Shown here piece after piece: positions 230 through 17,494 of a stretch of DNA of 32,000 nucleotides (position 1 is its first letter; every line of letters starts with the position of its first letter). The stretch covers positions 840,001 through 872,000 of the forward strand of contig NC_017080.1 in assembly GCF_000284115.1 (NCBI RefSeq), written 5' to 3'. The notes beneath the pieces were generated by a model, which saw only the letters and a list, made by a program, of their open reading frames with translations, had not been told where the DNA came from and made no database searches. Both the position numbers and the translations under genes were made by a program. The stretch is from Phycisphaera mikurensis NBRC 102666 (GTDB lineage: Bacteria > Planctomycetota > Phycisphaerae > Phycisphaerales > Phycisphaeraceae).

Positions 230-275
230 CCGCGGACCGAGAAGCCGTCCGCCCCCGGAGCCCCGCGGTCCGCGG
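230..275. repeat. Copy 1 of the 10-26-10 inverted-repeat element (CCGCGGACCG-N26-CGGTCCGCGG)
   Basis: Left arm exact at 230-239, right arm exact at 266-275, 26-nt spacer. The right arm extends to the 13-mer CCGCGGTCCGCGG (263-275). The element ends 2 nt from the stop codon (278-280) of the PEGA lipoprotein gene, a terminator-like position. Confidence 0.9.
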
Positions 276-277
276 CT

Positions 278-715
278 TCAGCGATCGTGCATCGCCCGCT
301 GCCGCAGCGCCCGCGCCCGCCCGAGCAGGGCGTCGGTCGAGGCGTCGCCCGCGTCGGGGCTCGGCTCCAGAGCGAAGCTCCAGTGCAGGTCGACGTCCGC
401 CCCCACCGCCTCTCCGATCAGGTCCAGCGGCGGGAACTCCCAGAAGGGCGCGACCGCCCGGTGTTCCGTCCAGAGCGGCTCGAAGCCGTCGGCCCGCAGC
501 CGCACGTCGTACACGCCGTAGTAGGTGAACGGGACGGTCACCGGCGTCCGCCCCACCTCCTGGTCGTTGAGGTGGACCAACGCCCCGCTGGGCTCGCTCT
601 GGATCGTGACGAAGCGGTCGGTCCCGCAGCCCGACGAGGCGGACCACGCCCCGCCCACGAGCGCGAGCGACAGCAGCCGCTCCGCAGCCCCCATCTTGAA
701 TCTCGTCTGCGGCAT
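278..715 (-). CDS. PEGA-domain lipoprotein
   Basis: 145-aa ORF. The signal peptide has a lipobox (LVGGAWSASSG-C). The PEGA-like motif is 'VTIQSEPSGALVHLNDQEVGRTPVTVPF..YDVRLRADGFEP'. An alternative ATG lies at 694. It sits 48 nt downstream of the act cluster on the same strand. Confidence 0.75.
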   Translation of the reverse strand: MPQTRFKMGAAERLLSLALVGGAWSASSGCGTDRFVTIQSEPSGALVHLNDQEVGRTPVTVPFTYYGVYDVRLRADGFEPLWTEHRAVAPFWEFPPLDLIGEAVGADVDLHWSFALEPSPDAGDASTDALLGRARALRQRAMHDR

Positions 716-763
716 CCCTGGCGCTCCGCGGTGCTCGGCAACCCCTCCCCGCGGGAAGATCCT

Positions 764-2729: not shown

Positions 2730-2783
2730 AAGGTTCCGCTTGGCGGATGGTCGTTCGATCGGGGATCCGGCGTCGCGGGCGTT

Positions 2784-3734
2784 CTACTCGGCGCCGATGC
2801 CCTCGCCCACGCCGTCGGGCGCGGAGGCGTCTTCCTCGGCGTTGTCGGAAGGCGAAGCGTCGGTGCTGCTGTCGGCGCCGAGCCCGGGCACGGCGGGGTC
2901 GCCCTCGTTGGCGACGACCGTCGGCTCGGGCGGGTTGAGGATCGCTTCGGGGATGTCGGGCTCTGCGGCGGCGTCGGACTCCTCCCCCGCCGCCTCCGCT
3001 TCGGCCGCCTCCGCGAGCACGTCCGCTCTCTGAGCTTCCTGGAGGGCGCGGATGTAGGCGACGACCGCCCAGCGGTCCTCGACCGGCATCGCGTGGGCGT
3101 AACCGGCCATGCTGCCCTTGCCGTTGGCGATCGTGTTGTAGAGGTGCCCCTCGCTGTACAGCTCCGGGCCGTAGGCGAGTTTGTCGCCCTCGAGCTTCAT
3201 CAAGCTGGCGGGCGGCACCCAGACGGTGCCGAGCCCGCGGCCGGAGGTCATCAGCTGCTGCGCCCGCTGGTGGACCGGCCCGTTGCCGCGGCCGTCGAGG
3301 CCGTGGCAGAGGCTGCACATCGCGTCGTAGCGCTCCTGGCCGTGCTTGACGAACAGCTCGTCCACCGTGATCTCTTCCGGGAAGCCCGTCAGGTAGTGGG
3401 TGGTCGTGCCGGAGGGGTTCTCCTCGGTGGCGGCGGCCTCCACCAGCTCGAAGCCGCGGTTGAGGTGGTCGTCGTCGCCGAGCTGCCCCCGCCCGACGGC
3501 TCCGGGCACCGCCGGACGCATCGCCCGGCCGTCGGCGAAGAGCGCGGAGGCGCCCTGTGCCTTGTGCTTCACCTGGTTGTCCATGTCCTGGAACAGGTGG
3601 ATCCGCGGCTCCTTGTGGTAGCTCGTGGAGTGCATCAGGAACAGCGTCAGCGGAACCAGCGACGTGACGGCGCCGAGCAGCAGCACGAAGACGAGGGGCC
3701 GCGGGGGCGAGGGCAGGTGGAGGGGGAGTTTCAT
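2784..3734 (-). CDS. actE: Alternative complex III monohaem cytochrome c subunit ActE, with an acidic Ala/Glu/Asp/Pro-rich C-terminal tail
   Basis: 316 aa. N-terminal TM helix, a single CxxCH (CSLCH) and a downstream Met ligand region (GKGSMAGYAHAMP). It lies between actD and actF. Confidence 0.8.
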   Translation of the reverse strand: MKLPLHLPSPPRPLVFVLLLGAVTSLVPLTLFLMHSTSYHKEPRIHLFQDMDNQVKHKAQGASALFADGRAMRPAVPGAVGRGQLGDDDHLNRGFELVEAAATEENPSGTTTHYLTGFPEEITVDELFVKHGQERYDAMCSLCHGLDGRGNGPVHQRAQQLMTSGRGLGTVWVPPASLMKLEGDKLAYGPELYSEGHLYNTIANGKGSMAGYAHAMPVEDRWAVVAYIRALQEAQRADVLAEAAEAEAAGEESDAAAEPDIPEAILNPPEPTVVANEGDPAVPGLGADSSTDASPSDNAEEDASAPDGVGEGIGAE

Positions 3735-3794: not shown

Positions 3795-4457
3795 TTAGTC
3801 CCGCACGAGGTCGGTGGAGAGGGCGCCCTGGTCCTGGAGGAACTTCAGCGTGCGGTGCTCGTCGAAGCGGGGGTCGTCGGCCTGGATCGCGAGGATGAAG
3901 CGGTCGTCGGTGGCCCGCTTCATCAACGGGCTCTTGAAGAGCGGGTTGAAGAGCATTGGCAGGCGGTTGAGCAGGAACATCGCGAACACCGCCGTGTAGG
4001 CGGCGAACATGATGGTCAGCTCGAAGATCACCGGGATGTACGCCGCGAGGGCGGCATAGGGCTTGCCCGAGATCAGGTACTGGTACCCCTCCAGCGACAC
4101 CGGGATGAGGGGCACCCCCTGCGGGCCGGCCATCGTGTAGAGCGTGAGGGACAGGCCGGTGGCCATGCCGCCGAGCCCCATCGCCAGCACGATCCAGGGG
4201 AGGATCGTCGGCTTCACGTCCAGGGCCGCGTCCATGCCGTGGATCGGGAAGGGCGTGTGGACGTCGGTGCGGGTGTACCCGGCCTCGGTGCAGCGCTTCG
4301 CCGCCATCAGCACCGAGTCGACGGTGTCGAACTCGGCGAGCAGGGCGTAGGGCATGCCCGCGTCGATGCTCGCGGCCACGCGGTGCCCGCGCGGCAGGTC
4401 GATCAGCGTCTCGGAAGTCGGTTGGGAGGCGGCGGTGGTCAAGGGTTCGCTTCGCAA
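3795..4457 (-). CDS. actD: Alternative complex III subunit ActD (DUF3341-type membrane protein)
   Basis: 'YALLAEFDTVDSVLMAAKRCTEAGYTRTDVHTPFPIHGMDAAL' followed by two TM helices is the DUF3341/ActD pattern. The start is uncertain. The track start at 4457 is a TTG, and the first ATG is at 4355 (186 aa). High GC3 between 4355 and ~4420 suggests translation starts upstream of the ATG. Confidence 0.8.
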   Translation of the reverse strand: MRSEPLTTAASQPTSETLIDLPRGHRVAASIDAGMPYALLAEFDTVDSVLMAAKRCTEAGYTRTDVHTPFPIHGMDAALDVKPTILPWIVLAMGLGGMATGLSLTLYTMAGPQGVPLIPVSLEGYQYLISGKPYAALAAYIPVIFELTIMFAAYTAVFAMFLLNRLPMLFNPLFKSPLMKRATDDRFILAIQADDPRFDEHRTLKFLQDQGALSTDLVRD

Positions 4458-4634: not shown

Positions 4635-6047
4635 TCAGTGGTGCGAGGCATGGGCCGCGGGCATGACCGTCTTGACCTCGGAGATCGCCACGGTCGGAAG
4701 GAACTTGAGGAAGAGCAGGAAGTTGGTGAAGAACAGCCCGAAGCTGGCGGTGAACATCAGCCCGTCCACCCAGGTGGCCTCGAAGAGCGCCCAGCTCGAC
4801 GGCAGGAAGTCGTTGGAGAGCGAGGTGATGGTGATCACGAAGCGCTCGAACCACATGCCGATGTTCACGCCCATCGCCGAGATCATCACGATCCAGGGGT
4901 TCAGGCGGAACCGCTTCACCCACATCAGCTGCGGAGCGCAGATGTTGCAGAGGAACATCGTCCAGAAGGCCCAGGCGTAGGGCCCGAAGGGGCGGAAGAG
5001 GAAGATCGCCTTCTCGTAGTGGTGGCCGCTGTACCAGGCGTAGAAGAACTCGGTGGTGTAGGCGAACGCCACGATCATGCCCGTTCCGAGCATCACCTTG
5101 GCGCAGTTGTCGATGTGCCGCTCGGTGATGATGTCCTTGAAGCCCAGCAGGTAGCGGGCGGGGATCGCGAGCGTCAGCACCATGGCGAAGCCGCCGAAGA
5201 TGGCCCCCGCCACGAAGTACGGGGGGAAGATCGTCGTGTGCCAGCCGGGCAGCTGGGCGACCGCGAAGTCGAAGGACACGACCGAGTGCACGGAGAGCAC
5301 CAGCGGGGTGCACAGCGCCGCGAGCAGCAGGTACGCCTTCTCGAAGCGGCTCCAGTGGCGGCTGCTGCCGGTCCAGCCCAGGCTGGCGATGCCGTAGCCG
5401 ATCTTGGCGATGCGGTTCTTCGTGCGGTCGCGGAGCGTCGCGATGTCCGGCACCATGCCCGTGTACCAGAACAGCAGCGAGACGCTCGCGTACGTGGAGA
5501 CCGCGAAGACGTCCCAGAGCAGCGGCGAGCGGAACTGCGGCCACATCGCCATCTGGTTGGGGTACGGGAAGAGCCAGTACGCGAGCCAGGGGCGGCCGAC
5601 GTGGATGGCCGGGAAGATGCCGGCGCAGACGACCGCGAAGATCGTCATCGCCTCGGCGAAGCGGTTGATGCTCGTCCGCCAGTTCTGGCGGAACAGGAAG
5701 AGGATCGCGGAGATCAGCGTGCCCGCGTGGCCGATGCCGACCCAGAACACGAAGTTGATGATTGGGAAGCCCCAGGCGTTGGGCTGGTTGTTGCCCCAGA
5801 CGCCCACGCCGGTGGTGACCAGGTACCCGATCAGGCCGAAGAACAGGCCCGCCAGCCCCACCGCCGGGACGAACAGCACCCACCACCAGATCGCCGGCCA
5901 GGACACGGCCACGCGGGAGACGCGGTCGGTGACGTCGCGGAAGCCCAGCCCACCGAGCACCAGCGGTGCGCGGCGGGTGGGATCGTCGCCCGTGTTGGAT
6001 CCCGCGTCGCGGGGGCCGAGGTCGTAGCCGGGGTGGATGGAGGCCAT
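4635..6047 (-). CDS. actC: Alternative complex III subunit ActC (NrfD/PsrC-like quinol-interacting membrane subunit)
   Basis: 470-aa polytopic membrane protein with NrfD-family hallmarks ([27 protein letters not shown]...). ATG start at 6047. Confidence 0.88.
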
Positions 6048-6075
6048 GAAGCTTGTTTCAGGTCGTCCGCCAGTG

Positions 6076-6121
6076 CCGCGGACCGTGATCGGTTTGGGTC
6101 GTTCGAGCCCGCGGTCCGCGG
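6076..6121. repeat. Copy 2 of the 10-26-10 inverted-repeat element
   Basis: CCGCGGACCG at 6076-6085 and CGGTCCGCGG at 6112-6121, 26-nt spacer. The right arm extends to CCGCGGTCCGCGG (6109-6121). It lies in the 235-bp actB-actC spacer, 29 nt upstream of the actC ATG. Confidence 0.9.
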
Positions 6122-6282
6122 ATGTTCGGTCGTGTCAGCCGCTCCGGGTCATCGTCGCGGGGCGAGGCAGGGCGGGCGGGCGGGATCGGCCTGGGGCCTG
6201 GGCTTCGAGCCTCCGGCGGCTCCATCTCCGCGGCCCTCCGCGGTCCTCCGCGTCGTCCCGCGTGGCGCGGCCCCCGTCCGCT

Positions 6283-9200
6283 TCAGCCGTGGTCGTGGCT
6301 CTTGCTCGTGTCCTTGCCCTTGGCCGACGCGACGGGGTTGCTGATCTTGGCGAGGTACTCGGTGCGGGCGCGGTGGTTGAGCTCGGAGAGCAGGGCGTAG
6401 CTGCGCGGGTTGTGCTGCTGGAGGACGCTCACGTGGCTGTCGGGGTCGTTCAGGTTGCCGAAGACGATCGCGTCGGTGGGGCAGGCGTTCTGGCAGGCGG
6501 TCCGGATCTCGCCGTCCTGCACCAGCCGGTCTTCGTCGGCGGGGTTCTCGCCGGCGGTCTTGCGCTTGGCCCAGTCGGCCTTGAGCGCGATCTTGGTGCG
6601 GCTGATCCGCTGCGTGCAGTACGTGCACTTCTCCATGACGCCGCGCATCCGCACGGTGACGTCGGGGTTGAAGAGCATCCGGCGCACCTGGTCGACCACG
6701 TCGCCTTGCTGCGTGTCGGCGAAGTCCAGCCAGGGCTTGTTCTGGACCTCGATGCCGAGCTTCTTGCTGCGGAAGAAGGAGCTGTCCAGCTTCGAGTGGT
6801 AGTCGAAGTAGTTGAAGCGACGCACCTTGTAGGGGCAGTTGTTGCTGCAGTAGCGCGTGCCGATGCAGCGGTTGTAGACCATCGCGTTGAGGCCCTCGGT
6901 GTCGTGCACCGTGGCGGCGACGGGGCAGACCTGCTCGCAGGGCGCGTTCTCGCACATCACGCAGGCCAGCGGCATGTTGACCGAGCCGAAGGTCTCGCTG
7001 GTCGTGCCCTCGGGATCGCCCTTGAAGTAGGTGTCGATGCGGATCCAGTGCATCTCCCGGCTGATGAGCACCTGATCGCGGCCGACCACCGGGATGTTGT
7101 TCTCCGCCTGGCAGGCGACCACGCACGCGTTGCAGCCCGTGCAGGTGCTCATGTCGATCGACATGCCCCAGGCGTGGGGCACGTTGAACGTGTCGGGGCC
7201 GTCGGGGTTGGGCTGAACGAACTTGGGCTGGTCCGGCCCGGTGACCGAGGGCGGGTCGAACAGCTGCAGCCGGATGTCGGTGTGTGCCCCGGCGGAGGCG
7301 AAGCCCGGGTTCGCGAGGTAGGCGGCGAGGGTCGCCTCCTTGACCGTGTAGCCGCTCTGGTGGGGCTTCTTGCCGGCCCGCTTCTGGATCGCGTAGTCCT
7401 CGATCGCTCCGCGGCCGTGCTGGCCCTCGGGCTTGAAGGGGCTGATGAGGTGGTGCGTCGAGGTGGTCGCGAGCTGCGTGTGCCCGCCCGCGCTGGCGAT
7501 CGTCGCCGGGGCCGACCACATCTGGCCGCTGGACCGCAGCGGGTACACGTTCTGGCCGACGCCGGTGCCGACGTTGCCGCTGACGCGGCGCCCCTGGCCG
7601 ACGTTGACGACGGCGACGCCCTTCGCCTGGCCGGGCATCACGTACACCGGCAGATCCACCGAGCCGGTGGCCGTGGTCACGGTGACGGTGTCGCCGTTGT
7701 CGACGCCGAGCCCGCGGGCATCGGCCATCGAGAGCCGGACCGGGTTGTCCCAGGTGACCTTCGTCAGCGGCTCGGGGAGCTCCTGGAGCCAGCCGGAGTT
7801 GGCGTAGCGGCCGTCCCCGATCGAACCCTCGGCGAAGACGAGCTGGAAGTCGCCTCCGGGAGCGTCCGGCAGCTCCGCGGCCGCGGGGCTGCCGACGGAA
7901 GCCGACGCGAAGGCGGAATCGCGGACGAGACCGTCGTGGACGAAGCCGCGCCAGGCCTTCTCGGCCTCGATGCCCGAGAGCTCGCCGGCGAACACCTGCG
8001 CCTGCGGGTCGTAGCCGGACGCCCCCACCACCGGGGCCCAAGCGCGCCGCACCAGGTGGTATCCGAGGCTGCCCGGGGCGGAGACCGCGGGGTCGCCGCT
8101 GGCGATGGCGGCCAGCTCGATCGGGGTGCGGCCGCCGAAGAGCGGCTCCAGCAGCGGCTGCTGGAGCAGGAGGGTGCCGTCCCAGGCGCGGCCGTCGCCC
8201 CAGCTCTCCAGCGCGTGGGCGCGGGGCAGGTGCCAATCGGCGGCGGCGGAGGTCTCGTCGACGTAGAGCCCGAGGCGGACGACCGTTGGCGCCTTGGCGA
8301 AGGCCTCGGCGACGCCGAGATCGGCCGGGGCGTCGAAGACCGGGTTGCCGTCGAGCACGAGCAGGGTGTCGACCTCGCCGCGGTCGAGCTTGGCGAGCAG
8401 CGAGCTGAGCGAGGGGAGGCAGGCGGCCTCGGCCGCGGGCAGCTCCAGCACGCGGACGGTCTCCCCGAGATTGCCCAGCTTCGCGTTGATCGCGGCGGCG
8501 AGGGCGTGGGCGGCGGCGGGCTGCGCGCGGCCCACGGTGACGAGGGTGCGTCCGCGGGCGGCGGCCTGCAGGTCGCCGGCGAGGGGGGCGAGGAAGCCCT
8601 CGGCCTCGGCGGGGAGCAGCTCGGGGGCGGGGTGGGCGACGCCGGCGACGCCGAGGCGGGCGGCGAGCTCCTGGAGCGCCGCCAAGACGCACGCGGGCGT
8701 CACCTGCATCGTCACGTCGGCGCTGGCGAGCGTGCAGGTCGGCGACGGAGCCGCGGCGTACAGCCGGCTCATCCCCGCCTCGCCCTCCACGCCCCTCTGC
8801 AGGCCGCGGTCGGACGAGCGGCGGTTCACGGCCCAGCCGGCGGCGTTGCTCAGGTAGCCGGGCCCCTCGGCGAGGAAGTCGTCGTCGAAGCAGGCGATGA
8901 CGTCGGCCTTCGCCGCGTCGGCGACGAGGCGCACCGGCTCGCCGCCGAAGGCGAGGGCGAGGCCTTCGATCTCGTTGTCGCGGTTCAGCGGCTCCCAGAC
9001 GTGCCAGCTGCCGGCGCCGTGCTTCGCCTCGAAACGCTTCTTGGCTTCGGCGGCCGCCGGGCCGCTCTGCGGCGTGGCGAGCACGGCGACCCGGCCGGCG
9101 AAGGGCTCGGCCGCCAGGAACGCCTCGAAGGTGGAGGCCCCCCCGGCGAAGGGCTCCGCCTCCTCCCCGGCGCCGCGTGCGCGGTCGACCCGGATGACCG

Positions 9201-9866: not shown

Positions 9867-10769
9867 TCAGCGGTGGCAGGTCGAGCAGGCCTGCATGTAG
9901 GCCTGGTTGTGGATCTGCATCTGCTTCTTCATCAGGTTGCCGATGAACAGCTGCTGCGCGTCGGCGTCGTCCTCCGCCACGGTGCCGGCTTCGACGGCCT
10001 GCCGCACGCGGGGGTCGTCGATCGGCTTCCAGACCATGCTGGTGACCTGGTCGGCGGGGCGGAGGTGCTCCTCCGGGGCCCGGTGGCACTCGATGCACCA
10101 GCTCATGGACAGGTTGCTCACCTGGTGGACGCCCTCCTCCCCCATCTGATCGACCCGGCCGTGGCAGGTCACGCAGGCGACGCCCTTGGTGACGTGCGCG
10201 GCGTGGTTGAAGTAGGCGTAGTCCGCGACGTCGTGGACTTTGATCCACTCGATCGGCTTGCCGCTCTGCACGCTGGCGTACACCGGGGCGAGCTTCGTGG
10301 AGTTGCTCTTGACGGCGAGGCCGCCCTTGAACCGCTCCTGCAGGCTCTCGTCGTTGCTGGCGCCGGCCCCGTGGCAGGCGACGCACGTCTGCGTCGGCGG
10401 GATCGCGGCGAACGCCGCGTTCTTCACCGTCGTGTGGCAGTAGGTGCAGTCCATGCCGAGCTGGCCGACGTGCAGCGCGTGGCTGTACGGCACGGGCTGC
10501 TCGGGCCGGTACAGGTTGTTGAGGTTGTTGGGGTTGAGGCCCAGGTAGGCCGCGGCCGGCACGTAGGTGGCGGCCCCGATCAGGCCGAGCACCATCAGCG
10601 GGAGCAGGTAGTTCGCCCAACGCGGGAACACGAAGGCCCGGTTTTCGGGTTCATGGTCCGGGGGGGAGGTCTCCGCCGGGGAGCCGCCGCCCGCGGGCGG
10701 CGTGGGGTGGGCACCGGCCGCGCCCGAGGGCGTGGGGTCCGGGTGCGGCTGTTGGGTTTCGTCGGCCAT
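9867..10769 (-). CDS. actA: Alternative complex III pentahaem cytochrome c subunit ActA
   Basis: 300 aa with an N-terminal TM anchor. It has five CxxCH motifs (CTYCH, CVACH, CVTCH, CIECH, CSTCH). It is the first gene of the cluster. Confidence 0.88.
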   Translation of the reverse strand: MADETQQPHPDPTPSGAAGAHPTPPAGGGSPAETSPPDHEPENRAFVFPRWANYLLPLMVLGLIGAATYVPAAAYLGLNPNNLNNLYRPEQPVPYSHALHVGQLGMDCTYCHTTVKNAAFAAIPPTQTCVACHGAGASNDESLQERFKGGLAVKSNSTKLAPVYASVQSGKPIEWIKVHDVADYAYFNHAAHVTKGVACVTCHGRVDQMGEEGVHQVSNLSMSWCIECHRAPEEHLRPADQVTSMVWKPIDDPRVRQAVEAGTVAEDDADAQQLFIGNLMKKQMQIHNQAYMQACSTCHR

Positions 10770-10974: not shown

Positions 10975-11020
10975 CCGCGGACCGTTGCCGCTTTCTTGCG
11001 GAAACGGCCGCGGTCCGCGG
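10975..11020. repeat. Copy 3 of the 10-26-10 inverted-repeat element
   Basis: CCGCGGACCG at 10975-10984 and CGGTCCGCGG at 11011-11020, 26-nt spacer. The right arm extends to CCGCGGTCCGCGG (11008-11020). It lies 22 nt downstream of the stop of the 11042-11476 gene and ~205 nt upstream of the actA ATG. Confidence 0.9.
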
Positions 11021-11041: not shown

Positions 11042-11476
11042 TCACGCCGCCGCGCCCACGGCGTTTCCGCTGGGCCGCAGGGCCAGCAGGGCCATCGTGA
11101 GCAGGCCCGCGAGCAGGCCGCCGGGGAGGAAGGCGTCCGCCACCATCGCCGCGATGCACGCGAGCACCACGCCCACCTCCAGCACCGCCCACACCAGCAT
11201 CAGCCCCCGGCGGTAGCCCTCCGCGTCGGCCGGCTTCTTCTGCCAGGGAGCGACCAGGACCCCGCTCTTGAGCACCAGCGCCGCGGGCACCAACACGAAC
11301 GCCCACACGATCGCCGGGAGCAGCAGCCACGCCGCCGCGCCCGCGCCGCCTCCGGGCGCGCCGGCGGTGTCGACCACCGCGGCGGAGACCGTCGCCACGG
11401 CTCCCGCGCAGAAGGCGTTCCACGCCCACCAGGCCCGGGTGATCTCGCCACGTGCTTCTCGGGGTGGGGTCGGCAT
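11042..11476 (-). CDS. Small polytopic membrane protein, unknown function
   Basis: This is the last 144 codons of the 564-aa track ORF, starting at ATG 11476 (MPTPPREARGEITRAWWAWNAF...). It has 3-4 hydrophobic helices and high GC3. The upstream part of the track ORF overlaps panB out of frame and is rejected. Confidence 0.6.
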   Translation of the reverse strand: MPTPPREARGEITRAWWAWNAFCAGAVATVSAAVVDTAGAPGGGAGAAAWLLLPAIVWAFVLVPAALVLKSGVLVAPWQKKPADAEGYRRGLMLVWAVLEVGVVLACIAAMVADAFLPGGLLAGLLTMALLALRPSGNAVGAAA

Positions 11477-11709: not shown

Positions 11710-12555
11710 TCAGGCTTCCCGCTTCGCGTAGGGCCCGCCGTCCCGGAGCACCTCGCCGGCTCCCACGGCCTGCACCCAGCGGCGGGCGGCGTCGGCGAGG
11801 GCGTCGCCGCCTCTGGCGATCGGCTTCACGAAGGAGGGCTGGCGGTCGGTGAGGCCCAGCAGGTCGTGGAGCACGACCACCTGGCCGTGGACGCCGGGCG
11901 CGTCCTCGGTGATGCTCGGTCCGGCTCCGCAGCCGATCACCGGGATCGACACGGCCCCGACCACCGCCGCGGCGGCCTCGGCGGTGGCCTGCTCGACGAG
12001 CAGCATCGCCGCGCCGGCACGCTCCAGCGCGGCGGCGAGCTTGGCCATCTCCTGGATTCTCGCATCCGTCCGCCCCGCGACGACCGGGACGCCGGTCCGC
12101 CCGGTCCGCTGCGGACCCCAGCCGATGTGCGCGACGACGGGGATGTTCGCCCGGTCCAGCTTGGCCACGAGGTCGACGTGGCGGTGATCGACTTCCAGCT
12201 TCACGGCGTCGGCCATGCCCTCGGTGAGGAAGCGGCCGGCGTTGCGGACGGCCTCGGCGTCGTCGGCCTGGTAGCTGAGGAAGGGCATGTCGCCCATGAG
12301 GAAGGCGTTGGGGGCGCCGCGCCGCACCGCCGCGGTGATCGCGAGCATGAAGCCCAGGCCGGCGTGGACGGTGTCCTCGAAGCCGAGCACCATGCTGCCG
12401 GCGGTGTCGCCGACGAGCAGCACATCGAGGCCGCCTCGGGCGAGCCACCGCGCCGTCGTCGCGTCGTAGCAGGTGAGCATCGCGAAGGGCCGCCGGTCGC
12501 GGGCCCGGTGGCGGAGGTCGCGGAGGGTGGTGCGGGCGGATCCGGGCGGGCTCAT
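11710..12555 (-). CDS. panB: 3-methyl-2-oxobutanoate hydroxymethyltransferase (ketopantoate hydroxymethyltransferase)
   Basis: 281 aa with the PanB signature blocks. These are 'AMLTCYDA', 'DVLLVGDTAGSMVLG', 'GDMPFLSYQ', 'AVKLE', 'IPVVAHIGWGPQ', 'IPVIGCGAG' and 'HGQVVVLHDLLGL'. Confidence 0.9.
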   Translation of the reverse strand: MSPPGSARTTLRDLRHRARDRRPFAMLTCYDATTARWLARGGLDVLLVGDTAGSMVLGFEDTVHAGLGFMLAITAAVRRGAPNAFLMGDMPFLSYQADDAEAVRNAGRFLTEGMADAVKLEVDHRHVDLVAKLDRANIPVVAHIGWGPQRTGRTGVPVVAGRTDARIQEMAKLAAALERAGAAMLLVEQATAEAAAAVVGAVSIPVIGCGAGPSITEDAPGVHGQVVVLHDLLGLTDRQPSFVKPIARGGDALADAARRWVQAVGAGEVLRDGGPYAKREA

Positions 12556-12575: not shown

Positions 12576-12621
12576 CCGCGGACCGCGGCCGCCTCGGGCC
12601 GATAACGGCGACGGTCCGCGG
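12576..12621. repeat. Copy 4 of the 10-26-10 inverted-repeat element (opposite polarity)
   Basis: CCGCGGACCG at 12576-12585 and CGGTCCGCGG at 12612-12621, 26-nt spacer. Here the LEFT arm is the 13-mer CCGCGGACCGCGG (12576-12588). It lies exactly 20 nt from the panB ATG (12555) and 20 nt from the GH130-like ATG (12642). Confidence 0.9.
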
Positions 12622-12641
12622 AATCGCGGGCGATCGAACCG

Positions 12642-14264
12642 ATGCCCCCCGGCGGCCGCATTTCTACCGTCTGCGGCGCCCGCACGACCGCCGCCGAAGG
12701 GATCCCGCTTTTGTCCGAGACCGCGACCGCACCCACGCACCCGCCCGCCGCCGCCGCTGGAGGATCGACGCCGGTCCGCGTCGACCGCTACCCCTCCCGC
12801 TTCCAGGCGGACGACAAGCGGGTCATCGCCCGGTACTTCAACGTTGGCGGCGCCGAGCGGATCCGCCGCGTCGGGGAGCGGGTCGCCGGGATGACCGACC
12901 GCGAGGTCGCCGACCTGCTCACGCTCACCATCGAGCGCTTCGGCGACCGCCACCGCCGGGTCGAGAAGAGCTTCGAGCGGCACTTCGAGCGCGCCAAGCC
13001 GGACCTCTTGGACCCCGATGCGCTCAGCAACGAGCGCAAGCTGCTGCTGGGCTCGTACTTCACGATGGAGTACGCGATCGAGGCGGCGGCGCTCTTCAAC
13101 CCCTCGATCGTCCCGCACCCCGACCAGAGCGGGGTCGAAGACGGCGGGCTCCGCTTCATCATGAGCCTGCGGGCCACCGGGGAGGGCCACGTCTCCTCAA
13201 TCGTGTTCCGCACCGGCGGCGTCTCCGGCGACGGGAAGGTGAGCTTCGATCCCTCCAGCCGGCTGGTGGCGAAGATGCGGGTGGCGCAGGACCAGACCTT
13301 TGAGAAGAAGCTCTTCTTCCAGAAGCTCATCGAGATGGGCGCGTACACCGAGGCCGCCAAGCCGGCATTGGACGCGCTGCCCGCGGAGTTCCACGACGAG
13401 CAGCTCGAGGCGACGCTCGACCGCGTCGCGGGCCGGGAGGACCTGCCCGAGGGCTACGCGGAGGCCGCCGAGCAGATGCGGTGGCTGGCCCACAGCAACT
13501 ACACGCTGAAGATCCCCGAGGAGAGCGGACCCGACGAGATCGTCATCTTCCCCACCAGCGAGAACGAGAGCCGCGGCATCGAGGACGTCCGCTTCACGGC
13601 GTTCACCGACGACGACGGGGAGGTCACCTACTACGGCACGTACACCGCGTACAACGGCTTCCGCATCCTGCCGCAGCTGCTCGAGACCAAGGACTTCCAC
13701 ACCTTCGGGATCCACACGCTCAACGGCCGCTACGTCCAGAACAAGGGCATGGCGCTGTTCCCGCGGAAGATCAACGGCCGCTACATGATGATCTCGCGCC
13801 TCGACGGCGAGAACATGTTCATCATGAACAGCGACAACCCGCGGTTCTGGAACCGGGCCCAGAAGCTCTGCGGCCCGATGTACCCCTGGGAGTTCGTGCA
13901 GATCGGCAACTGCGGCCCGCCGATCGAGACCCCCGCCGGCTGGCTGCTGCTCACCCACGGCGTCGGCCCGGTCCGCCGCTACTGCATCGGCGCTTGCCTG
14001 CTGGACCTCGACGACCCCAGCCGGGTGATCGGCCACCTCGACCGCCCGCTGCTCGAGCCGCAGGAGGACGAGCGCGACGGCTACGTGCCCAACGTCGTGT
14101 ACTCGTGCGGGGCCCTGGTCCACAACGACACGCTGGTGCTGCCCTACGCCGTGAGCGACTCGGCGTCGACGGTGGCCACGCTGTCGATGACCGAGCTGCT
14201 GAACCAGCTGACCAAGCACTCCCGCAGCTGCCCGCTCCCGGACCGCCGCATGGACGGGCGGTGA
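12642..14264 (+). CDS. GH130-family-like glycosidase/phosphorylase (beta-propeller) with a ~300-aa N-terminal domain of unknown function
   Basis: The C-terminal half has GH130/DUF377-type blocks. These are 'SENESRGIEDVRF', 'YYGTYTAYNG', 'NKGMALFPRKINGRYMMISR', 'GNCGPPIETPAGWLLLTHGVGP' and 'GYVPNVVYSCG'. The only ATG start is at 12642, so the start is uncertain. Confidence 0.75.
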   Translation: MPPGGRISTVCGARTTAAEGIPLLSETATAPTHPPAAAAGGSTPVRVDRYPSRFQADDKRVIARYFNVGGAERIRRVGERVAGMTDREVADLLTLTIERFGDRHRRVEKSFERHFERAKPDLLDPDALSNERKLLLGSYFTMEYAIEAAALFNPSIVPHPDQSGVEDGGLRFIMSLRATGEGHVSSIVFRTGGVSGDGKVSFDPSSRLVAKMRVAQDQTFEKKLFFQKLIEMGAYTEAAKPALDALPAEFHDEQLEATLDRVAGREDLPEGYAEAAEQMRWLAHSNYTLKIPEESGPDEIVIFPTSENESRGIEDVRFTAFTDDDGEVTYYGTYTAYNGFRILPQLLETKDFHTFGIHTLNGRYVQNKGMALFPRKINGRYMMISRLDGENMFIMNSDNPRFWNRAQKLCGPMYPWEFVQIGNCGPPIETPAGWLLLTHGVGPVRRYCIGACLLDLDDPSRVIGHLDRPLLEPQEDERDGYVPNVVYSCGALVHNDTLVLPYAVSDSASTVATLSMTELLNQLTKHSRSCPLPDRRMDGR

Positions 14265-14351: not shown

Positions 14352-15296
14352 TCACGCGCCCGCGGGCACCCGCATCCGCAAGGCTCCGGGCTCGGCGGTC
14401 ACCTCCAGCCGGTCCGCCTCGGAGGACTCGCCGTCGGCGTTCAGCGGCAGCGGCGCCTCGCTCTCGACGCGGAGCTCGGTGAGCGAGGCGGCGACCAGCG
14501 GGCGGGGCGGCCAGGCCCGCGGGTCGGCGTCGGGGGCGTCGCCGCCGGGCCGGCGGAGGCGGCGGCTGAGGGCGACGCGTTGCGTCAGCCGCAGGTCCGG
14601 GAGGATGAGCACCTCGAAGCGGCCGCTGGCGAGGCGGGCGGCGGGGGCGACGCGGAAGCCGCCGCCGGTGAAGCGGCCGTTGCTGGCGACGACGCCGAGC
14701 GCGTCGCCGCGCCAGGCGAAGCGCGAGCCGTCCGGCCCGCGGCCGGTGACGCGGACCGGCGTGGCTCCGACGACCGCCGCCCGGGCGGCGCCCCAGGCGG
14801 TGTAGGCGGCTCCGCCGGCGAGAGCCTTCACCGCGTCGGGCGTGGAGGCCGACGTGCCGGCGATGGCGCCGAACGAGATGGCGTTGACGGCCCGCCGCGG
14901 CTCGCCCGCGGGCCGCGGCACGCGGAGCACGTCGATGCTCCGCGCCGGCCAGCCGAGCACGCGGGCGAGGGCGTCTTCGGGCGCGGCGTCGTCGGTGCCG
15001 AGGTGGCGGGCGAAGTCGTTGCCGGTGCCGTTGGGCACGAGGCCGATCTCGCAGTCCGCGCCCGTCTCCAGCACCGCGTTCGCCGCGAGGTGCAGCGAGC
15101 CGTCGCCGCCGAAGGTGACCAGGAGGTCGGCCCAGGCGGCTTCCTCGCGCAGCTCGGCCTCCGGGTCGTCGCCCACGGCGTGGCGGCGGACCTCCGCGCA
15201 GCCGCGGACCGCGGCGTCCAGGGCGTCATCGCGCACGCAGTCCGCGGATCCGAAGAGAACGAGGCGGCCCGGGCTCGGGGGTGGGCTGTCCTTCAC
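14352..15296 (-). CDS. Diacylglycerol-kinase-family (DagK/YegS-like) lipid kinase
   Basis: This is the last 314 codons of the 1049-aa track ORF. It carries DAGK catalytic-domain motifs 'LLVTFGGDGSLH' and 'IGLVPNGTGNDFARHLG'. I take GTG at 15296 as the start (VKDSPPPSPGRLVLFGS...). The upstream ~730 codons of the track ORF are Arg/Pro junk overlapping real genes. Confidence 0.75.
   Translation of the reverse strand: MKDSPPPSPGRLVLFGSADCVRDDALDAAVRGCAEVRRHAVGDDPEAELREEAAWADLLVTFGGDGSLHLAANAVLETGADCEIGLVPNGTGNDFARHLGTDDAAPEDALARVLGWPARSIDVLRVPRPAGEPRRAVNAISFGAIAGTSASTPDAVKALAGGAAYTAWGAARAAVVGATPVRVTGRGPDGSRFAWRGDALGVVASNGRFTGGGFRVAPAARLASGRFEVLILPDLRLTQRVALSRRLRRPGGDAPDADPRAWPPRPLVAASLTELRVESEAPLPLNADGESSEADRLEVTAEPGALRMRVPAGA
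15202..15247. repeat. Copy 5 of the 10-26-10 inverted-repeat element (one mismatch; opposite polarity; inside the kinase coding sequence)
   Basis: CCGCGGACCG at 15202-15211 and CAGTCCGCGG at 15238-15247 (A for G at position 2), 26-nt spacer. The left arm extends to CCGCGGACCGCGG (15202-15214). On the minus strand it translates as GSADCVRDDALDAAVRGC. Confidence 0.8.
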
Positions 15297-15335
15297 GCGC
15301 GCCGGGACGCTACGCCCGGCCGGTAGCCTCGGCGG

Positions 15336-15845
15336 ATGCTCGCGGAGACGGACCTGCCGACGCTGCTCGCGGATCTGCGGCCGCGCCTGCACGGCGGCGC
15401 TTTCTGCTTCGTCGCCGCGGAGGACGCGGCGGGCCTGGACGCCGCGGCTTCGGTGCGGGAGGCGGAGGGCTGGTCGTGGCTGGTCCCGGTCGCCCGGGCC
15501 GAGGCGGCGGGCTTGCCCTTCGACGGCCGGTTCCGCTGGATCACGCTGGAGGTGCACTCCGCCCTGGGAGCCGTCGGCCTCACGGCCGCCGTGGCGACGC
15601 GGCTGGCGGCCGCGGGCATCGCCGCGAACGTCATCGCCGGCCGCCTCCACGACCACGTGCTCGTGCCCGAAGCGCGGGCGGAAGAGGCGGCGGCGCTGCT
15701 GGAGCCCGCTCAGCCGCCCGGCGGCCAGGCGATCCAGTCGCCGTCGACGGCCTCTTCGGGCGGGGCGAAAGCGGCGCGGTTGCCGCCGGCCTCCTCGGTC
15801 GGCAGGACGCCGCCGTCGTCGTCGCCGTCGGCGCCGAGGCCGTAG
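15336..15845 (+). CDS. ACT-domain protein (ACT_7/DUF2241-like)
   Basis: 169-aa ORF. 'RWITLEVHSALGAVGLTAAVATRLAAAGIAANVIAGRLHDHVLVPEARAEEA' matches the small ACT-domain family pattern. The last ~45 codons (Pro/Ser/Ala-rich) overlap the convergent gene and may be read-through until the first available stop. Confidence 0.65.
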   Translation: MLAETDLPTLLADLRPRLHGGAFCFVAAEDAAGLDAAASVREAEGWSWLVPVARAEAAGLPFDGRFRWITLEVHSALGAVGLTAAVATRLAAAGIAANVIAGRLHDHVLVPEARAEEAAALLEPAQPPGGQAIQSPSTASSGGAKAARLPPASSVGRTPPSSSPSAPRP

Positions 15846-17494
15846 ATCACCGGCCGGCCGTCGCGGATCGTCCACCGCATCGGCGTGCCGTGCAGCGGGT
15901 CGAGCGGGATCTCGTGGAGGTACGCGGGCACCAGCTTGGCGTAGCCGGTGGAAGGTTCCGGAAAGCTCCCGGTGGCGAGGCGGTGGCGGTGGAGGGCGAG
16001 GGCGAGGAGGGCGGCGTCGCGGCGGGCGTCGCTCTCGAAGGCATCGCGGCGGGTCGCATCGAGGGCCGGGAGCAGCTGGGTCACCATGCCGTAGCGCATC
16101 GCTCCGAGGGGGCCGTCGACCGCCGCGTCGAGGGCCGCCGGCGTGGGCAGTTCCCACGCCTGGTGCAGGGGGACGCGGAAGCCGGCCGCGGCCGCGTCCA
16201 TGGCATCCCGGTGCACCGCGGCAAGATCGGAGCGGGAGGCCGAAACCAGCAGCGCCAGCGGCAGCAGGGAGGCTTCCACCGGGTTGCTGTCGGTGACGCC
16301 GGATCCGGGCAGCGAGCCTGCCGCACCGAGCATCGTCGCGAAACCGCGGACGCCCTCGGGGGTGATCCGGCCGCCGCCGCGGCCGTCGTCGGTGAACATC
16401 CGCTGGAGCAGGTCCTCGAATATCAGCCGCTCGCCGAGCAGGGCCTCGTCTGTCACCGGCCTCGGGCGGTCGCGGACCCTTTCCTGGAGGCGCCGCAGCT
16501 CGAAGCGGCTGAACAGCTCTGGATCCAGCGTGAGGGCCTCGGCCAGCAGCCCATCCGCCTTGGCCTGCACGCTCGAGGCGACCAGTGCGTTGATCAGCGT
16601 CGGGTGCTCCAGCGCCCAGTTGGCCAGGCGGAGCAGGCCCGCAGAGGCGGCCGCGGTTCCCGCGGCGTCGCCCGCCGCGGCGGCGTGGACGCCCCGGGCC
16701 CGCAGCACCCCGGCGGCGTTGCGGAGCTGGTGGAGGTGGTCGAGGCGGACCTCCATGAGCGACGACAGCGGAGCGACGCCGCCTGCGGCGTCCGCATCGC
16801 CGGGCGGACGCGCGAGCGAGGCCTCCCATCCCAATGCGGGCCGGGCGAGCGCCGCGTCGAGCGTGTCGAGCGGGTCCGCGTGCTCGTTGAGGAAGCCGAT
16901 CAGCGACGGCCACGCCGAGTCGCCGGGGCTCGCGTCCAGCGGCGGCCCGCCGCGCGTCGGAAGGTCCAGATTGCTCATGGCTTCCTGCAGCAGCGGCCAC
17001 GCCCGCTCCCGGTCCGGCACCGCCGCCGCGACCGCGTTGAGCCGGGCGAGGTGGTCGACGCTCACCCGCGGCTCGCCGCTGTAGAAGCGGATCGCGAGGA
17101 CGGCGTAGAAGACGGCGAAGGCCCCGAGGGCCCACCAGACGCAGGTCTTGAGCTTCGAGAGAAAACCGCGGTTGCGCTTCTTCGCGCGGCGGATGAGCTT
17201 CGCGGCGACGGCGGGGTCGCCGAAATCGTGTTGCGCCTCGGCGGGGTTTACACCTTGCCGGTCGGCGTCGTGGAAGTGGGCGATCAGCTCGTCGGCGACG
17301 GCGAGCTTCTCCTTGGGGCGGAGCTTCGTCGCTCGCACGGTCGCGAGGACGAGGTCGCGGCTGGCGGTGGCCAGGCCGGAGGCTTCGACGCGGCGGGTCC
17401 ACTCCGATCGGCGGAAGAATCCGCGGACCGTGGCGGATTCGGGCTGATTCGCCTCGCGGTCCGCGGGTTCTTCGGCGGGGGTGTCGGCGCTCAC
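15710..17494 (-). CDS. PadR-associated single-pass membrane protein (HAAS/DUF1700-like cytoplasmic N-terminus, large periplasmic domain)
   Basis: I take the start as GTG 17494, which overlaps the PadR stop (GTGA). The N-terminal helix 'KEKLAVADELIAHFHDADRQGVNPAEAQHDFGDPAVAAKLIRRAKK' is followed by a TM helix (CVWWALGAFAVFYAVLAIRF). A ~450-aa Ala/Leu-rich domain ends in 'IYGLGADGDDDGG...DGDWIAWPPGG'. The upstream part of the track ORF (to 17875) overlaps PadR out of frame. Confidence 0.65.
   Translation of the reverse strand: MSADTPAEEPADREANQPESATVRGFFRRSEWTRRVEASGLATASRDLVLATVRATKLRPKEKLAVADELIAHFHDADRQGVNPAEAQHDFGDPAVAAKLIRRAKKRNRGFLSKLKTCVWWALGAFAVFYAVLAIRFYSGEPRVSVDHLARLNAVAAAVPDRERAWPLLQEAMSNLDLPTRGGPPLDASPGDSAWPSLIGFLNEHADPLDTLDAALARPALGWEASLARPPGDADAAGGVAPLSSLMEVRLDHLHQLRNAAGVLRARGVHAAAAGDAAGTAAASAGLLRLANWALEHPTLINALVASSVQAKADGLLAEALTLDPELFSRFELRRLQERVRDRPRPVTDEALLGERLIFEDLLQRMFTDDGRGGGRITPEGVRGFATMLGAAGSLPGSGVTDSNPVEASLLPLALLVSASRSDLAAVHRDAMDAAAAGFRVPLHQAWELPTPAALDAAVDGPLGAMRYGMVTQLLPALDATRRDAFESDARRDAALLALALHRHRLATGSFPEPSTGYAKLVPAYLHEIPLDPLHGTPMRWTIRDGRPVIYGLGADGDDDGGVLPTEEAGGNRAAFAPPEEAVDGDWIAWPPGG
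17421..17466. repeat. Copy 6 of the 10-26-10 inverted-repeat element
   Basis: CCGCGGACCG at 17421-17430 and CGGTCCGCGG at 17457-17466, 26-nt spacer. The extended right arm is TCGCGGTCCGCGG (17454-17466). It lies 28-73 nt downstream of the proposed GTG start of the HAAS-type gene. Confidence 0.9.

What the first reader, a model, noticed from the sequence alone, without database searches (positions are those of the whole stretch)
230..17466. Six dispersed copies of a polar inverted-repeat element with invariant 10-26-10 architecture (CCGCGGACCG-N26-CGGTCCGCGG)
The copies are at 230-275, 6076-6121, 10975-11020, 12576-12621, 15202-15247 (one mismatch) and 17421-17466.

- **Spacing:** in all six, the two 10-nt arms are separated by exactly 26 nt, while the spacer sequence is largely different. 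Only a weak shared core resembles ..TCGGGCYGAT.. in copies 2, 4 and 6.
- **Flanks:** these tend toward GAT|CCGCGG...CCGCGG|ATC.
- **Polarity:** exactly one arm per copy extends to the 13-nt quasi-palindrome CCGCGG(A/T)CCGCGG. That is the right arm in copies 1, 2, 3 and 6 (copy 6 reads TCGCGG...) and the left arm in copies 4 and 5.
- **Chance expectation:** at ~36% G, 36% C and 14% A or T, a 10-mer with nine G/C and one A/T occurs about 1.4e-5 per position. That predicts roughly one chance hit on both strands of 32 kb. I see 11 exact and one 1-mismatch half-sites, all paired at the same distance.
- **Contexts:** two copies follow stop codons, one is in an operon spacer, one lies between divergent starts, and two are in N-terminal coding sequence. 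None occurs in 17.5-32 kb.

The candidate explanations are:
1. A REP/REPIN-like mobile palindrome family.
2. A bipartite operator for a dimeric or tetrameric DNA-binding protein (half-site centres 36 bp apart).
3. RNA hairpins acting as terminators or stabilisers.

I do not recognise this element as a described family.
Basis: partly seen in the sequence, partly recalled or inferred. Interest (0 to 1): 0.8.

Follow-up and report, generated by a model that had tools for sequence, protein, structure and literature searches.

The report
Dispersed 46-bp palindromic docking motif
A 46-base mirror-image DNA motif, with two invariant 10-base ends and a middle of fixed length but free sequence, is scattered at gene boundaries in the planctomycete Phycisphaera mikurensis and its closest relatives. 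It looks more like a high-copy docking site for an unknown DNA-binding protein than like a jumping element or an RNA hairpin.

Summary
The window is Phycisphaera mikurensis chromosome. It holds seven copies of CCGCGGACCG-N26-CGGTCCGCGG, not six: five exact and two with one mismatch. The missed copy lies at 24762-24807. None is expected by chance.

- **Distribution:** the motif recurs in close relatives. All 24 arm pairs in 139 kb of DNA not selected for the motif have a 26-nt spacer. About 40 marine metagenome contigs also carry it. Three more distant Phycisphaerae loci carry none.
- **Conservation:** at orthologous sites the arms are invariant while the spacers diverge to about 40-70% identity without indels.
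- **Spacer:** it is not random. A/T frequency peaks at 74% at element positions 19 and 28, with A and T about equally accepted.
- **Symmetry:** the two halves vary independently. There is no covariation and no polarity.
- **Coding copies:** three copies lie inside coding sequence. The kinase (DAGK) copy adds no length. Its arm codons show no synonymous change in four species (0/5 against 75/137 elsewhere).

My best reading (about 0.45) is a dyad-symmetric double-stranded docking site for a dimeric DNA-bending protein. The rivals are a REP/MITE-like element, an uptake-signal-like drive and a protein-bound RNA hairpin. I found no described family that matches.

The parts
230..275 (.). Copy 1, exact arms with a 26-nt spacer. 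It lies 2 nt downstream of the stop codon of the PEGA-domain gene (278-715, minus strand).
6076..6121 (.). Copy 2, exact. It lies in the 235-nt ActB-ActC spacer of the alternative complex III operon, 28 nt upstream of the ActC start codon. It is present at the same position in all four genomes compared.
   Evidence: In alignment A1 both arms are invariant, the spacer is about 46% invariant with no indels, and the upstream intergenic DNA cannot be aligned.
10975..11020 (.). Copy 3, exact. It lies 21 nt after the stop of a 144-aa membrane protein gene (11042-11476, minus strand) and 205 nt upstream of ActA. The relative L123 has an orthologous copy; L124 and L126 do not.
12576..12621 (.). Copy 4, exact. 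It lies in the divergent panB / GH130 intergenic region, 20 nt from the panB ATG. L123 and L126 have orthologous copies with one mismatch each. In L124/L125 the copy is decayed or absent.
15202..15247 (.). Copy 5, one mismatch (CCGCGGACTG on the sense strand). It lies inside the diacylglycerol-kinase-family (DAGK) gene at codons 17-32, and the true gene start is GTG 15296. The same copy with the same mismatch is present in three relatives.
17421..17466 (.). Copy 6, exact. It lies 24 nt after the PadR stop codon and inside the N-terminal codons (about 10-25) of the 594-aa gene, whose GTG start overlaps the PadR stop (GTGA). L184 has an orthologous copy.
24762..24807 (.). It has one mismatch (CCGTCCGCGG) and a spacer that is 100% G+C. 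It lies inside the low-complexity C-terminal tail of the outer-membrane efflux protein gene (22770-24992, plus strand). This is the least certain member.

Best explanation
The element is a dyad-symmetric site of about 48 bp on double-stranded DNA. It is read by a sequence-specific dimeric (or dimer-of-dimers) DNA-binding protein found in Phycisphaera mikurensis and its closest relatives.

- **Half-sites:** each reading head recognises one invariant half-site, (A)(not A)CCGCGGACCG(Y)(S)(G).
- **Spacer:** the 26-bp spacer acts as a ruler and as a bendable linker. A/T patches at element positions 19 and 28 sit where the minor groove would face the protein. Together with the A/T at positions -1, 7, 40 and 48, they give a roughly 10-bp-periodic pattern about the dyad.
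- **Copies:** hundreds of copies sit at gene boundaries. There the bound protein would act as an architectural, insulating or roadblock factor, or as a very broad regulator.

**Shown:** the invariance of the arms, the fixed spacing, the symmetric A-or-T patches, the independence of the two halves, conservation in place including at synonymous sites, and restriction to this lineage.

**Inferred:** that a protein binds, that the DNA is bent, and what the bound complex does.
For: 1. **Spacing is strict.** In 138.7 kb of P. mikurensis and relatives' DNA that was not selected for the motif, all 24 genuine arm pairs have a 26-nt spacer. Orthologous spacers differ at 30-60% of positions but never in length. 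In unrelated high-GC genomes the same two 10-mers occur once per locus, at spacings spread over 12-42 nt. Only 3 of 120 were at 26.
2. **The spacer has a mirror-symmetric composition rule, not a sequence.** A/T frequency is 0.74 at spacer positions 9 and 18, against 0.10-0.23 at most other spacer positions. At element position 19, T (47) and A (41) are about equally accepted. That is what minor-groove or bendability read-out of duplex DNA predicts, and not what base-specific read-out of a single strand predicts.
3. **The halves vary independently.**
   - Inner positions 11-16 match between the two arms no more than chance predicts (162 observed, about 152 expected).
   - Folding energy equals that of elements with re-paired halves (-29.83 against -29.50 +/- 0.38 kcal/mol).
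   - There is no polarity.
4. **The arms are held in place.**
   - At ActB-ActC all 20 arm bases are invariant in four genomes, while 14 of the 26 spacer columns vary and the flanks cannot be aligned.
   - The same holds after PadR in two genomes.
   - In the DAGK gene, 0 of 5 arm codons show synonymous change in four species, against 75 of 137 conserved codons elsewhere (Fisher p = 0.02).
5. **The DAGK copy adds no length** relative to an outgroup homologue or to the Pfam DAGK_cat profile. It is therefore not a simple 46-bp insertion.
6. **Mismatch counts fall off steeply.** There are 16 exact copies, 8 with one mismatch and about 1 with more. Where a site is lost it is thoroughly decayed.
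Against: - No binding protein has been identified, and none can be with these tools.
- Twenty invariant bases across hundreds of sites is far tighter than ordinary operator or nucleoid-protein sites. That tightness suggests copying, homogenisation or a drive as well as selection.
- How so many 20-base-perfect sites arose without a copy-and-paste step is unexplained.
- Non-orthologous spacers are marginally more alike than the re-paired-halves null predicts (p about 0.03-0.06). One pair at unrelated loci shares 21 of 26 spacer bases.
- The half-site centres are 36 bp apart (33 bp between the central A and T). That is long for a simple dimer.
- Every copy can also form a stable 10-bp stem as a single strand (112 of 112 folds). 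A hairpin form is therefore not excluded.
- The metagenome copies were selected for exact arms and N26, so only the 24 unselected copies speak to invariance.
Confidence: 0.45

Rival explanations
1. The element is a REP/REPIN- or MITE-like miniature mobile palindrome. A 46-bp unit with 10-bp terminal inverted repeats was spread by a transposase, either a RAYT/IS200-like enzyme acting on the single-stranded hairpin or a transposase that binds terminal inverted repeats. The copies have since diverged in the spacer. Their present effect, if any, is that of REPs: mRNA 3'-end protection, supercoiling sites or insulation.
For: - The element is high-copy, GC-rich, palindromic and lineage-specific, and sits mostly at gene boundaries, as REPs do.
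- A copy-and-paste origin is the simplest way to obtain hundreds of 20-base-perfect sites of identical length.
- There is a marginal excess of spacer similarity between unrelated loci. One pair shares 21 of 26 spacer bases with no flank or protein similarity.
- One relative (the L124/L183 organism) has few intact copies, several decayed copies and orphan half-sites, as expected after loss of a maintaining enzyme.
- RAYT-type transposases are reported in another planctomycete, R. baltica (PMC3733652).
Against: - There is no GTAG or CGTC tag and no target-site duplication in the flank matrix.
- Spacers of different copies share only a weak half-site consensus, about 7 bits in total.
- The arms stay perfect at orthologous sites while spacers diverge. 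A transposase cannot enforce that in place.
- The DAGK copy is length-neutral.
- A 26-nt loop and A-or-T degeneracy are not what hairpin-reading HUH enzymes need.
- No transposase domain is listed among the genes of about 139 kb of element-bearing loci. This is weak evidence, because a RAYT is usually single-copy.
Confidence: 0.25
2. The element is an uptake-signal-like or other drive-maintained self-recognition motif. A DNA receptor or a conversion machinery prefers DNA that carries the motif. Biased uptake or repair followed by recombination then creates and preserves copies in place, as proposed for USS in Pasteurellaceae and DUS in Neisseriaceae.
For: - An invariant core is maintained at orthologous positions, including inside coding sequence and at synonymous sites.
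- One coding copy arose without any length change.
- The ratio of exact to one-mismatch copies is about 2:1.
- A/T tracts sit at fixed positions next to a GC-rich core. From my own knowledge, the extended Haemophilus USS has helically phased A/T tracts, and Neisseria DUS often occur as inverted pairs at gene ends.
- The motif is absent from viral contigs and from more distant Phycisphaerae.
Against: - Known uptake signals work as single cores of 9-12 bp. Here the cores are essentially always paired at one exact distance.
- The density, about one per 4-5 kb, is lower than for USS or DUS.
- Copies are strongly biased to gene boundaries.
- To my knowledge natural competence has not been reported in planctomycetes.
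- A 20-base bipartite motif is hard to build stepwise.
Confidence: 0.12
3. The element works as RNA. The transcribed copy folds into a 10-bp G+C stem with a 26-nt loop, and a sequence-specific RNA-binding or processing protein recognises it. This sets mRNA ends or stability, for example uncoupling ActAB from ActCDEF expression.
For: - All copies fold with the full outer stem, with a minimum free energy of about -30 kcal/mol.
- Most copies lie in transcribed spacers: just after stop codons (2, 12, 21, 24 and 24 nt) or 20-46 nt before start codons.
- Four of the five independent single mismatches are transitions that keep a G-U pair on one strand.
Against: - There is no covariation anywhere.
- There is no strand polarity, and the A/T skew has no link to gene strand (14 against 8).
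- A and T are interchangeable at the conserved patches. That has no meaning for RNA.
- A strict loop length is not needed for a hairpin.
- There is no U-tract, and no copy is called as a terminator.
- No Rfam family matches.
- Copies are tolerated inside three genes.
Confidence: 0.12

Closest known systems
REP / BIME elements and REPINs (RAYT-associated repetitive extragenic palindromes; E. coli, Pseudomonas and others; survey in PMC3733652)
   Same: Both are short, GC-rich and palindromic, with hundreds of copies. Both sit at gene boundaries and within operon spacers, are lineage-specific, and are sometimes found inside genes. BIME-1/RIP elements also consist of two inverted units around a linker of fixed length that a bending protein (IHF) binds.
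   Different: Here only the 10-nt arms are shared. The 26-nt middle is not homologous between copies but its length is fixed. There is no GTAG or CGTC tag and no tight hairpin. The arms are held invariant in place across species. No associated RAYT is known; this could not be tested.
DNA uptake signal sequences (USS of Pasteurellaceae, DUS of Neisseriaceae)
   Same: Both have an invariant core of about 10 nt in very many copies. Both are maintained at orthologous positions, including in coding DNA, without signs of transposition. Both have A/T tracts at fixed distances from the core (USS), and DUS occur as inverted pairs at gene ends.
   Different: Here the cores are always an inverted pair at exactly 26 nt, with essentially no functional singles. 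Density is lower. Competence and a receptor are unknown in planctomycetes.
MITEs such as Neisseria Correia elements
   Same: Both have terminal inverted repeats around a short interior, occur in many intergenic copies, and may have an internal protein-bending site.
   Different: MITE copies share their interior sequence, are longer (about 100-150 bp or more) and carry target-site duplications. None of these is seen here.
Dyad-symmetric operators and nucleoid-protein sites (for example CAP-, Fis- or IHF-type sites with A/T at positions where the minor groove faces inward)
   Same: Both have two inverted half-sites at a fixed distance and halves that vary independently. Both have A-or-T degeneracy at fixed positions with a period of about 10 bp.
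   Different: This site is much longer (46-50 bp), and its 20 core bases are much more invariant. It has far more copies than a typical regulon, and the neighbouring genes share no functional theme.

Membership tests
REP / REPIN (RAYT-mobilised) | An imperfect palindrome of 20-40 nt that folds into a tight hairpin, with the whole sequence (stem and loop) shared among copies | tested here: not met
   Only the 10-nt arms are shared. The 26-nt interior carries about 7 bits of consensus and is not homologous between loci.
REP / REPIN (RAYT-mobilised) | An unpaired GTAG or CGTC tetranucleotide tag at one end (PMC3733652) | tested here: not met
   The flank matrices of 59-64 copies show only A at position -1 (50%) and 'not A' at position 0. 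There is no tag (definition).
REP / REPIN (RAYT-mobilised) | A RAYT (Y1 HUH transposase) gene in the genome, flanked by the repeats | not testable with these tools
No transposase domain is listed among the genes of the fetched loci. The ORF between two close copies in L163 is a small membrane protein.
REP / REPIN (RAYT-mobilised) | High copy number and a mainly extragenic location | tested here: met
   There are 7 copies in 32 kb, 24 in 139 kb of unselected DNA, and about 40 more contigs in metagenomes. About 11 of 15 distinct sites are intergenic.
MITE | Terminal inverted repeats plus a target-site duplication and an interior shared by copies | tested here: not met
   Inverted termini are present. 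There is no direct repeat in the flanks and the interior is not shared. The DAGK copy adds no length.
Intrinsic (Rho-independent) terminator | A G+C stem with a 3-8-nt loop, followed by a U-tract | tested here: not met
   The loop would be 26 nt. Positions 47-56 have no T run. None of the copies is called by the terminator scan. Three copies lie inside genes.
Uptake signal sequence (USS/DUS-like) | A short invariant core in very many copies, kept in place at orthologous positions in coding and non-coding DNA | tested here: met
Uptake signal sequence (USS/DUS-like) | Single cores are functional units, so many unpaired copies exist | tested here: not met
   All 12 exact half-sites in the window are paired. 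In 139 kb all 24 genuine pairs have N26, and only about a dozen orphan cores occur, several of which look decayed.
Uptake signal sequence (USS/DUS-like) | A naturally competent host with a sequence-specific DNA receptor | not testable with these tools
   No genome-wide gene inventory and no experiment were possible.
Dyad-symmetric protein-binding site on duplex DNA | Two inverted half-sites at a fixed distance | tested here: met
   All 24 unselected pairs have N26. The background in other genomes is spread over spacings of 12-42.
Dyad-symmetric protein-binding site on duplex DNA | Half-sites vary independently, and degenerate positions obey a strand-symmetric rule (A or T) | tested here: met
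Dyad-symmetric protein-binding site on duplex DNA | A cognate binding protein | not testable with these tools
   This needs a pull-down, EMSA or DAP-seq.
Curated structured RNA family (Rfam) | A match to a covariance model, or covariation that supports the pairs | tested here: not met
   No Rfam match at gathering score in the window. The arms never vary, so they carry no covariation, and the spacer shows none.

The most novel reading that the evidence does not exclude
The motif is a genus-wide 'self' mark that a drive creates and preserves in place. The drive would be biased DNA uptake or biased repair and conversion by a dimeric receptor that reads two cores 36 bp apart on bent DNA. That would make it the first uptake-signal-like system outside the Proteobacteria, and the first with an obligatory bipartite, fixed-spacing signal.
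Probability: 0.12. Interest if true: 0.85.

Novelty: new variant of a known kind. Interest (0 to 1): 0.6.

Why it matters
Planctomycetes have almost no characterised cis-elements or nucleoid proteins. This 46-bp site is likely present in hundreds of copies; that figure is extrapolated from 7 copies in 32 kb. Its 20 invariant bases, exact spacer length and conservation across species give a ready bait for finding its partner protein.

If the partner is an architectural or roadblock protein, the element marks gene and operon boundaries in this lineage. One example is the split of the alternative complex III operon. It could also serve as a genetic tool.

If instead the element is drive-maintained or transposase-maintained, it is an unusual case in which only the termini and the length of a repeat are preserved. 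That bears on how REP-like families persist.

Tried and rejected
- **Genome-collection scan.** I ran it with a wide gap (N12-42). I reused the output as a background control.
- **Source identification by paper search.** It found nothing. The source was identified instead from an exact panB protein.
- **P. mikurensis plasmid.** Fetching it by accession failed.
- **Crude codon-bias gene caller.** It was too noisy and I dropped it. I used phase plots and public gene calls instead.
- **Polarity tests.**
  - The spacer's T-rich strand does not track the gene strand (14 against 8).
  - The CGG extension and the oriented matrix show no polarity.
- **Covariation and inner-stem tests.** Both were negative. 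The 2.3 kcal/mol gain over shuffled spacers is explained by the shared half-site consensus.
- **Recent copy-and-paste.** The excess spacer similarity over a column-permuted null mostly disappears against the re-paired-halves null.
- **Searches that found nothing.**
  - Rfam.
  - Viral contigs.
  - Terminator scan.
  - Literature search for the 10-mers, which returned only primers and unrelated uses.
- **Candidate RAYT.** The ORF between two close copies in L163 is a small membrane protein, not a RAYT.
- **Neighbouring 144-aa gene.** It encodes a membrane protein, not a DNA binder.
- **PadR next to copy 6.** I considered it as the binder and set it aside. One local regulator is an unlikely reader of hundreds of sites beside genes that share no functional theme.

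Full report
**Source and gene map.** The window is 100% identical to contig JACHEL010000007.1 of assembly GCA_014207395.1. Its panB protein is identical to one that NCBI names Phycisphaera mikurensis, a planctomycete of class Phycisphaerae with about 73% G+C. Codon-phase plots, Pfam hits and the public gene calls give the following map:

| Gene | Coordinates | Strand |
|---|---|---|
| PEGA-domain protein | 278-715 | - |
| Alternative complex III operon | ActF-like 1038-2729, ActE 2784-3734, ActD 3795-4457, ActC 4635-6047, ActB 6283-9786, ActA 9867-10769 | - |
| 144-aa membrane protein | 11042-11476 | - |
| panB | 11710-12555 | - |
| GH130 | 12642-14264 | + |
| DAGK-family kinase | 14352-15296 | - |
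| ACT-domain protein | 15336-15845 | + |
| 594-aa protein | 15710-17494 | - |
| PadR | 17491-17856 | - |
| PurL | 17931-21032 | - |
| TPR protein | 21552-22625 | + |
| Outer-membrane efflux protein | 22770-24992 | + |
| Giant surface protein | 24979 to beyond the window | + |

**Checking the observation.**
- The pattern CCGCGGACCG-N(20-32)-CGGTCCGCGG matches five times, always with 26 nt between the arms, at 230, 6076, 10975, 12576 and 17421. None of 100 shuffles gave a match.
- The copy at 15202 has one mismatch.
- The window has 12 exact half-sites against 1.31 +/- 1.09 expected, and every one belongs to an element.

**Is it specific to this lineage?**
Those hits still serve as a control. 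Their spacings are spread over 12-42 nt, and only 3 of 120 are at 26.
- I reached relatives through panB and DAGK homologues.
- In 138.7 kb of P. mikurensis and close-relative DNA that was not selected for the motif (panB 85-89% identical), there are 24 arm pairs with at most one mismatch. All 24 have N26. Three apparent exceptions are artefacts of extended arms or of an orphan half-site next to a full copy.
- Density differs between organisms:

| Organism or loci | Copies per kb |
|---|---|
| L123/L184 organism | about 0.3 |
| P. mikurensis | 0.22 |
| L126 | 0.19 |
| L124/L183 organism | about 0.07 |

- The L124/L183 organism also has orphan and decayed copies.
- A metagenome scan for the exact N26 pattern returned 53 contigs. 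About 40 look like family members, most of them from one marine assembly, and they do not overlap the reference loci.
- Three more distant Phycisphaerae loci, including Algisphaera agarilytica, have no half-site and no other recurrent inverted repeat.
- There were no matches in viral contigs.

**Anatomy.**
- A weight matrix of the half-sites (118 from 59 copies) shows more than the 10-mer:
  - A at position -1 (50%), and almost never A at position 0.
  - The invariant CCGCGGACCG at positions 1-10.
  - Y at position 11, with C and T near 50:50. My family filter required Y there.
  - S at position 12 and G at position 13 (71%).
  - An A/T patch at positions 18-20.
- Across the spacer, A/T frequency is 0.74 at spacer positions 9 and 18 (element positions 19 and 28). 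It is 0.10-0.23 at most other spacer positions.
- At position 19, T (47) and A (41) are about equally used.
- Individual patches tend to be homopolymeric (TTT or AAA). This explains why many spacers are strongly T-rich on one strand. The two patches are oriented independently of each other.

**No polarity and no covariation.**
Across 64 copies it is present on 0, 1 or 2 arms in 37, 24 and 3 elements. Independent arms predict 37.5, 23 and 3.5.
- Orienting every copy to maximise information gives 8.63 bits. Elements assembled from randomly re-paired halves give 8.25 +/- 0.25 bits.
- The T-rich strand does not follow the gene strand (14 against 8).
- Inner positions 11-16 of the two arms match no more often than independence predicts.
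- As single strands, all copies fold with the 10-bp stem, with a minimum free energy of about -30 kcal/mol. Real spacers fold 2.3 kcal/mol better than shuffled ones.
- Elements with re-paired halves fold just as well (-29.50 +/- 0.38 against -29.83; p = 0.18). The extra stability therefore comes from the shared half-site consensus, not from pairing selected within each copy.

**Evolution at orthologous sites.**
- **ActB-ActC spacer.** The element is present in all four genomes, 28-29 nt upstream of the ActC start. Both arms are invariant, 12 of 26 spacer columns are invariant, there are no indels, and the upstream intergenic DNA cannot be aligned.
- **After PadR.** Two genomes share the element with perfect arms and only about 38% spacer identity.
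- **Upstream of panB.** The element is present in three genomes with 0-1 mismatch. In L124/L125 a sequence of similar length that looks thoroughly decayed takes its place, rather than a clean 46-bp gap.
- **After the 144-aa gene.** It is present in two of four genomes.
- **Mismatch spectrum.** Among the 24 unselected copies it is 16 exact, 8 with one mismatch and about one worse. Four of the eight are a single shared event in DAGK.

**Copies inside genes.**
- Copy 5 lies at codons 17-32 of the DAGK-family gene. Its real start is GTG 15296; the public call at 15236 is too short.
- The same copy, with the same C-to-T mismatch, is present in three relatives.
- The region is no longer than in a 33%-identical outgroup or in the Pfam DAGK_cat profile. 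This copy is therefore not a simple 46-bp insertion.
- Across the four species, none of the five conserved codons whose third base lies in an arm shows a synonymous change. Elsewhere in the gene, 75 of 137 do (Fisher p = 0.02).
- Copy 6 lies in the N-terminal codons of the 594-aa gene, which starts at a GTGA overlap with the PadR stop. L184 has the same arrangement, with a coding signal in that frame.
- Copy 7 lies in the low-complexity tail of the efflux protein.

**Weighing mobility.**
- Pairwise spacer identity between copies has a heavier upper tail than a column-permuted null.
- Against the more appropriate null, which keeps half-spacers intact and re-pairs them, the excess is marginal (p about 0.03-0.06).
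- One pair at unrelated loci shares 21 of 26 spacer bases.
- There is no tag, no target-site duplication and no transposase among the genes of the fetched loci. The whole genome could not be searched for a RAYT.

**Interpretation.**
- Four features are what a dimeric protein reading duplex DNA would impose:
  - the exact spacing, kept through heavy substitution;
  - the mirror-symmetric A-or-T patches;
  - the independence of the halves;
  - nucleotide-level conservation in place.
- A hairpin-reading enzyme or a structural RNA would not impose these features.
- Relative to the dyad, the A/T positions fall at about +/-4.5, +/-16.5 and +/-24.5 bp. That is close to the 10.5-bp series expected if the minor groove faces a protein around which roughly 50 bp is bent. 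This step is inference.
- I put this reading at about 0.45.
- The near-perfect identity of 20 bases over hundreds of sites, and the question of how the sites arose, keep a REP/MITE-like origin (0.25) and an uptake-signal-like drive (0.12) alive.
- A protein-bound RNA hairpin is least favoured (0.12). There is no polarity, no covariation and no U-tract, and no Rfam family matches.

**Comparison with known families.**
- It resembles REP/BIME elements in abundance and placement, but fails their testable defining features (PMC3733652).
- It resembles USS/DUS in being kept in place, including in coding DNA, but is obligatorily bipartite.
- It resembles nucleoid-protein sites in symmetry and A/T phasing, but is far more invariant.
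- I found no paper that describes it.
- I class it as a new variant of the known kind 'dispersed intergenic palindromic repeat'. Its partner and function are unknown.

Noticed in passing
window 15236-15296 (DAGK-family gene, minus strand): The public gene call starts at 15236, inside the element. That cuts off about 20 N-terminal codons, including the conserved RLVLFG strand. The real start is most likely GTG 15296.
   Followed up: yes
window 17491-17494, and L184 8084-8087: The 594-aa gene starts at a GTG that overlaps the PadR stop codon (GTGA), which suggests translational coupling. In L184 the public calls place minus-strand genes here, but the codon-phase signal supports the plus-strand orthologue.
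   Followed up: partly
window 15710-15845: The called 3' end of the 594-aa gene (minus strand) overlaps the ACT-domain gene (plus strand) by about 135 nt. One of the two calls is probably too long.
   Followed up: no
L123 19240-19300 and 19590-19640; L126 17500-17560 and about 17870-17910; L124 about 17400-17540: In the relatives, but not in P. mikurensis, the ActB-ActC spacer is 290-500 nt long. It carries three tandem CACGGATG-like units and, about 300 nt downstream, three CATCCGTG units, which are their reverse complement. These flank a conserved stretch with a possible small ORF. This is a second, unrelated repeat system.
   Followed up: no
L124 12270-12560: An insertion of about 250 nt between the 142-aa gene and ActA carries tandem CAGGTCTCAGGTCTCAGGG units and their inverted counterpart CCTGAGACCTGAGACCTG. 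The other genomes lack it.
   Followed up: no
L123 10879-13925; L124 10879-11795; L126 10771-12139: The relatives carry toxin-antitoxin-type and Uma2-family genes (PIN, Uma2) between panB and the 144-aa gene. P. mikurensis has none there, so this is a small variable island.
   Followed up: no
L123 9348-9392; L183 17224 (minus strand); L123 1307 and 1372: These are decayed or partial elements. One has a 1-nt deletion in an arm but an intact 26-nt spacer. The others are orphan half-sites, one of which still carries the typical TCGG-TTTTC start of a spacer.
   Followed up: partly
window 24979-32000 (plus strand): A giant open reading frame of more than 2340 codons runs off the end of the window. 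It has GH115_C, DUF11 and MG10-like domains, and its start overlaps the end of the efflux gene.
   Followed up: no
window 6048-6282: The alternative complex III operon is interrupted by an unusually long ActB-ActC spacer of 235 nt. The only parts of it conserved across species are the element and the 28-nt leader before the ActC start.
   Followed up: partly
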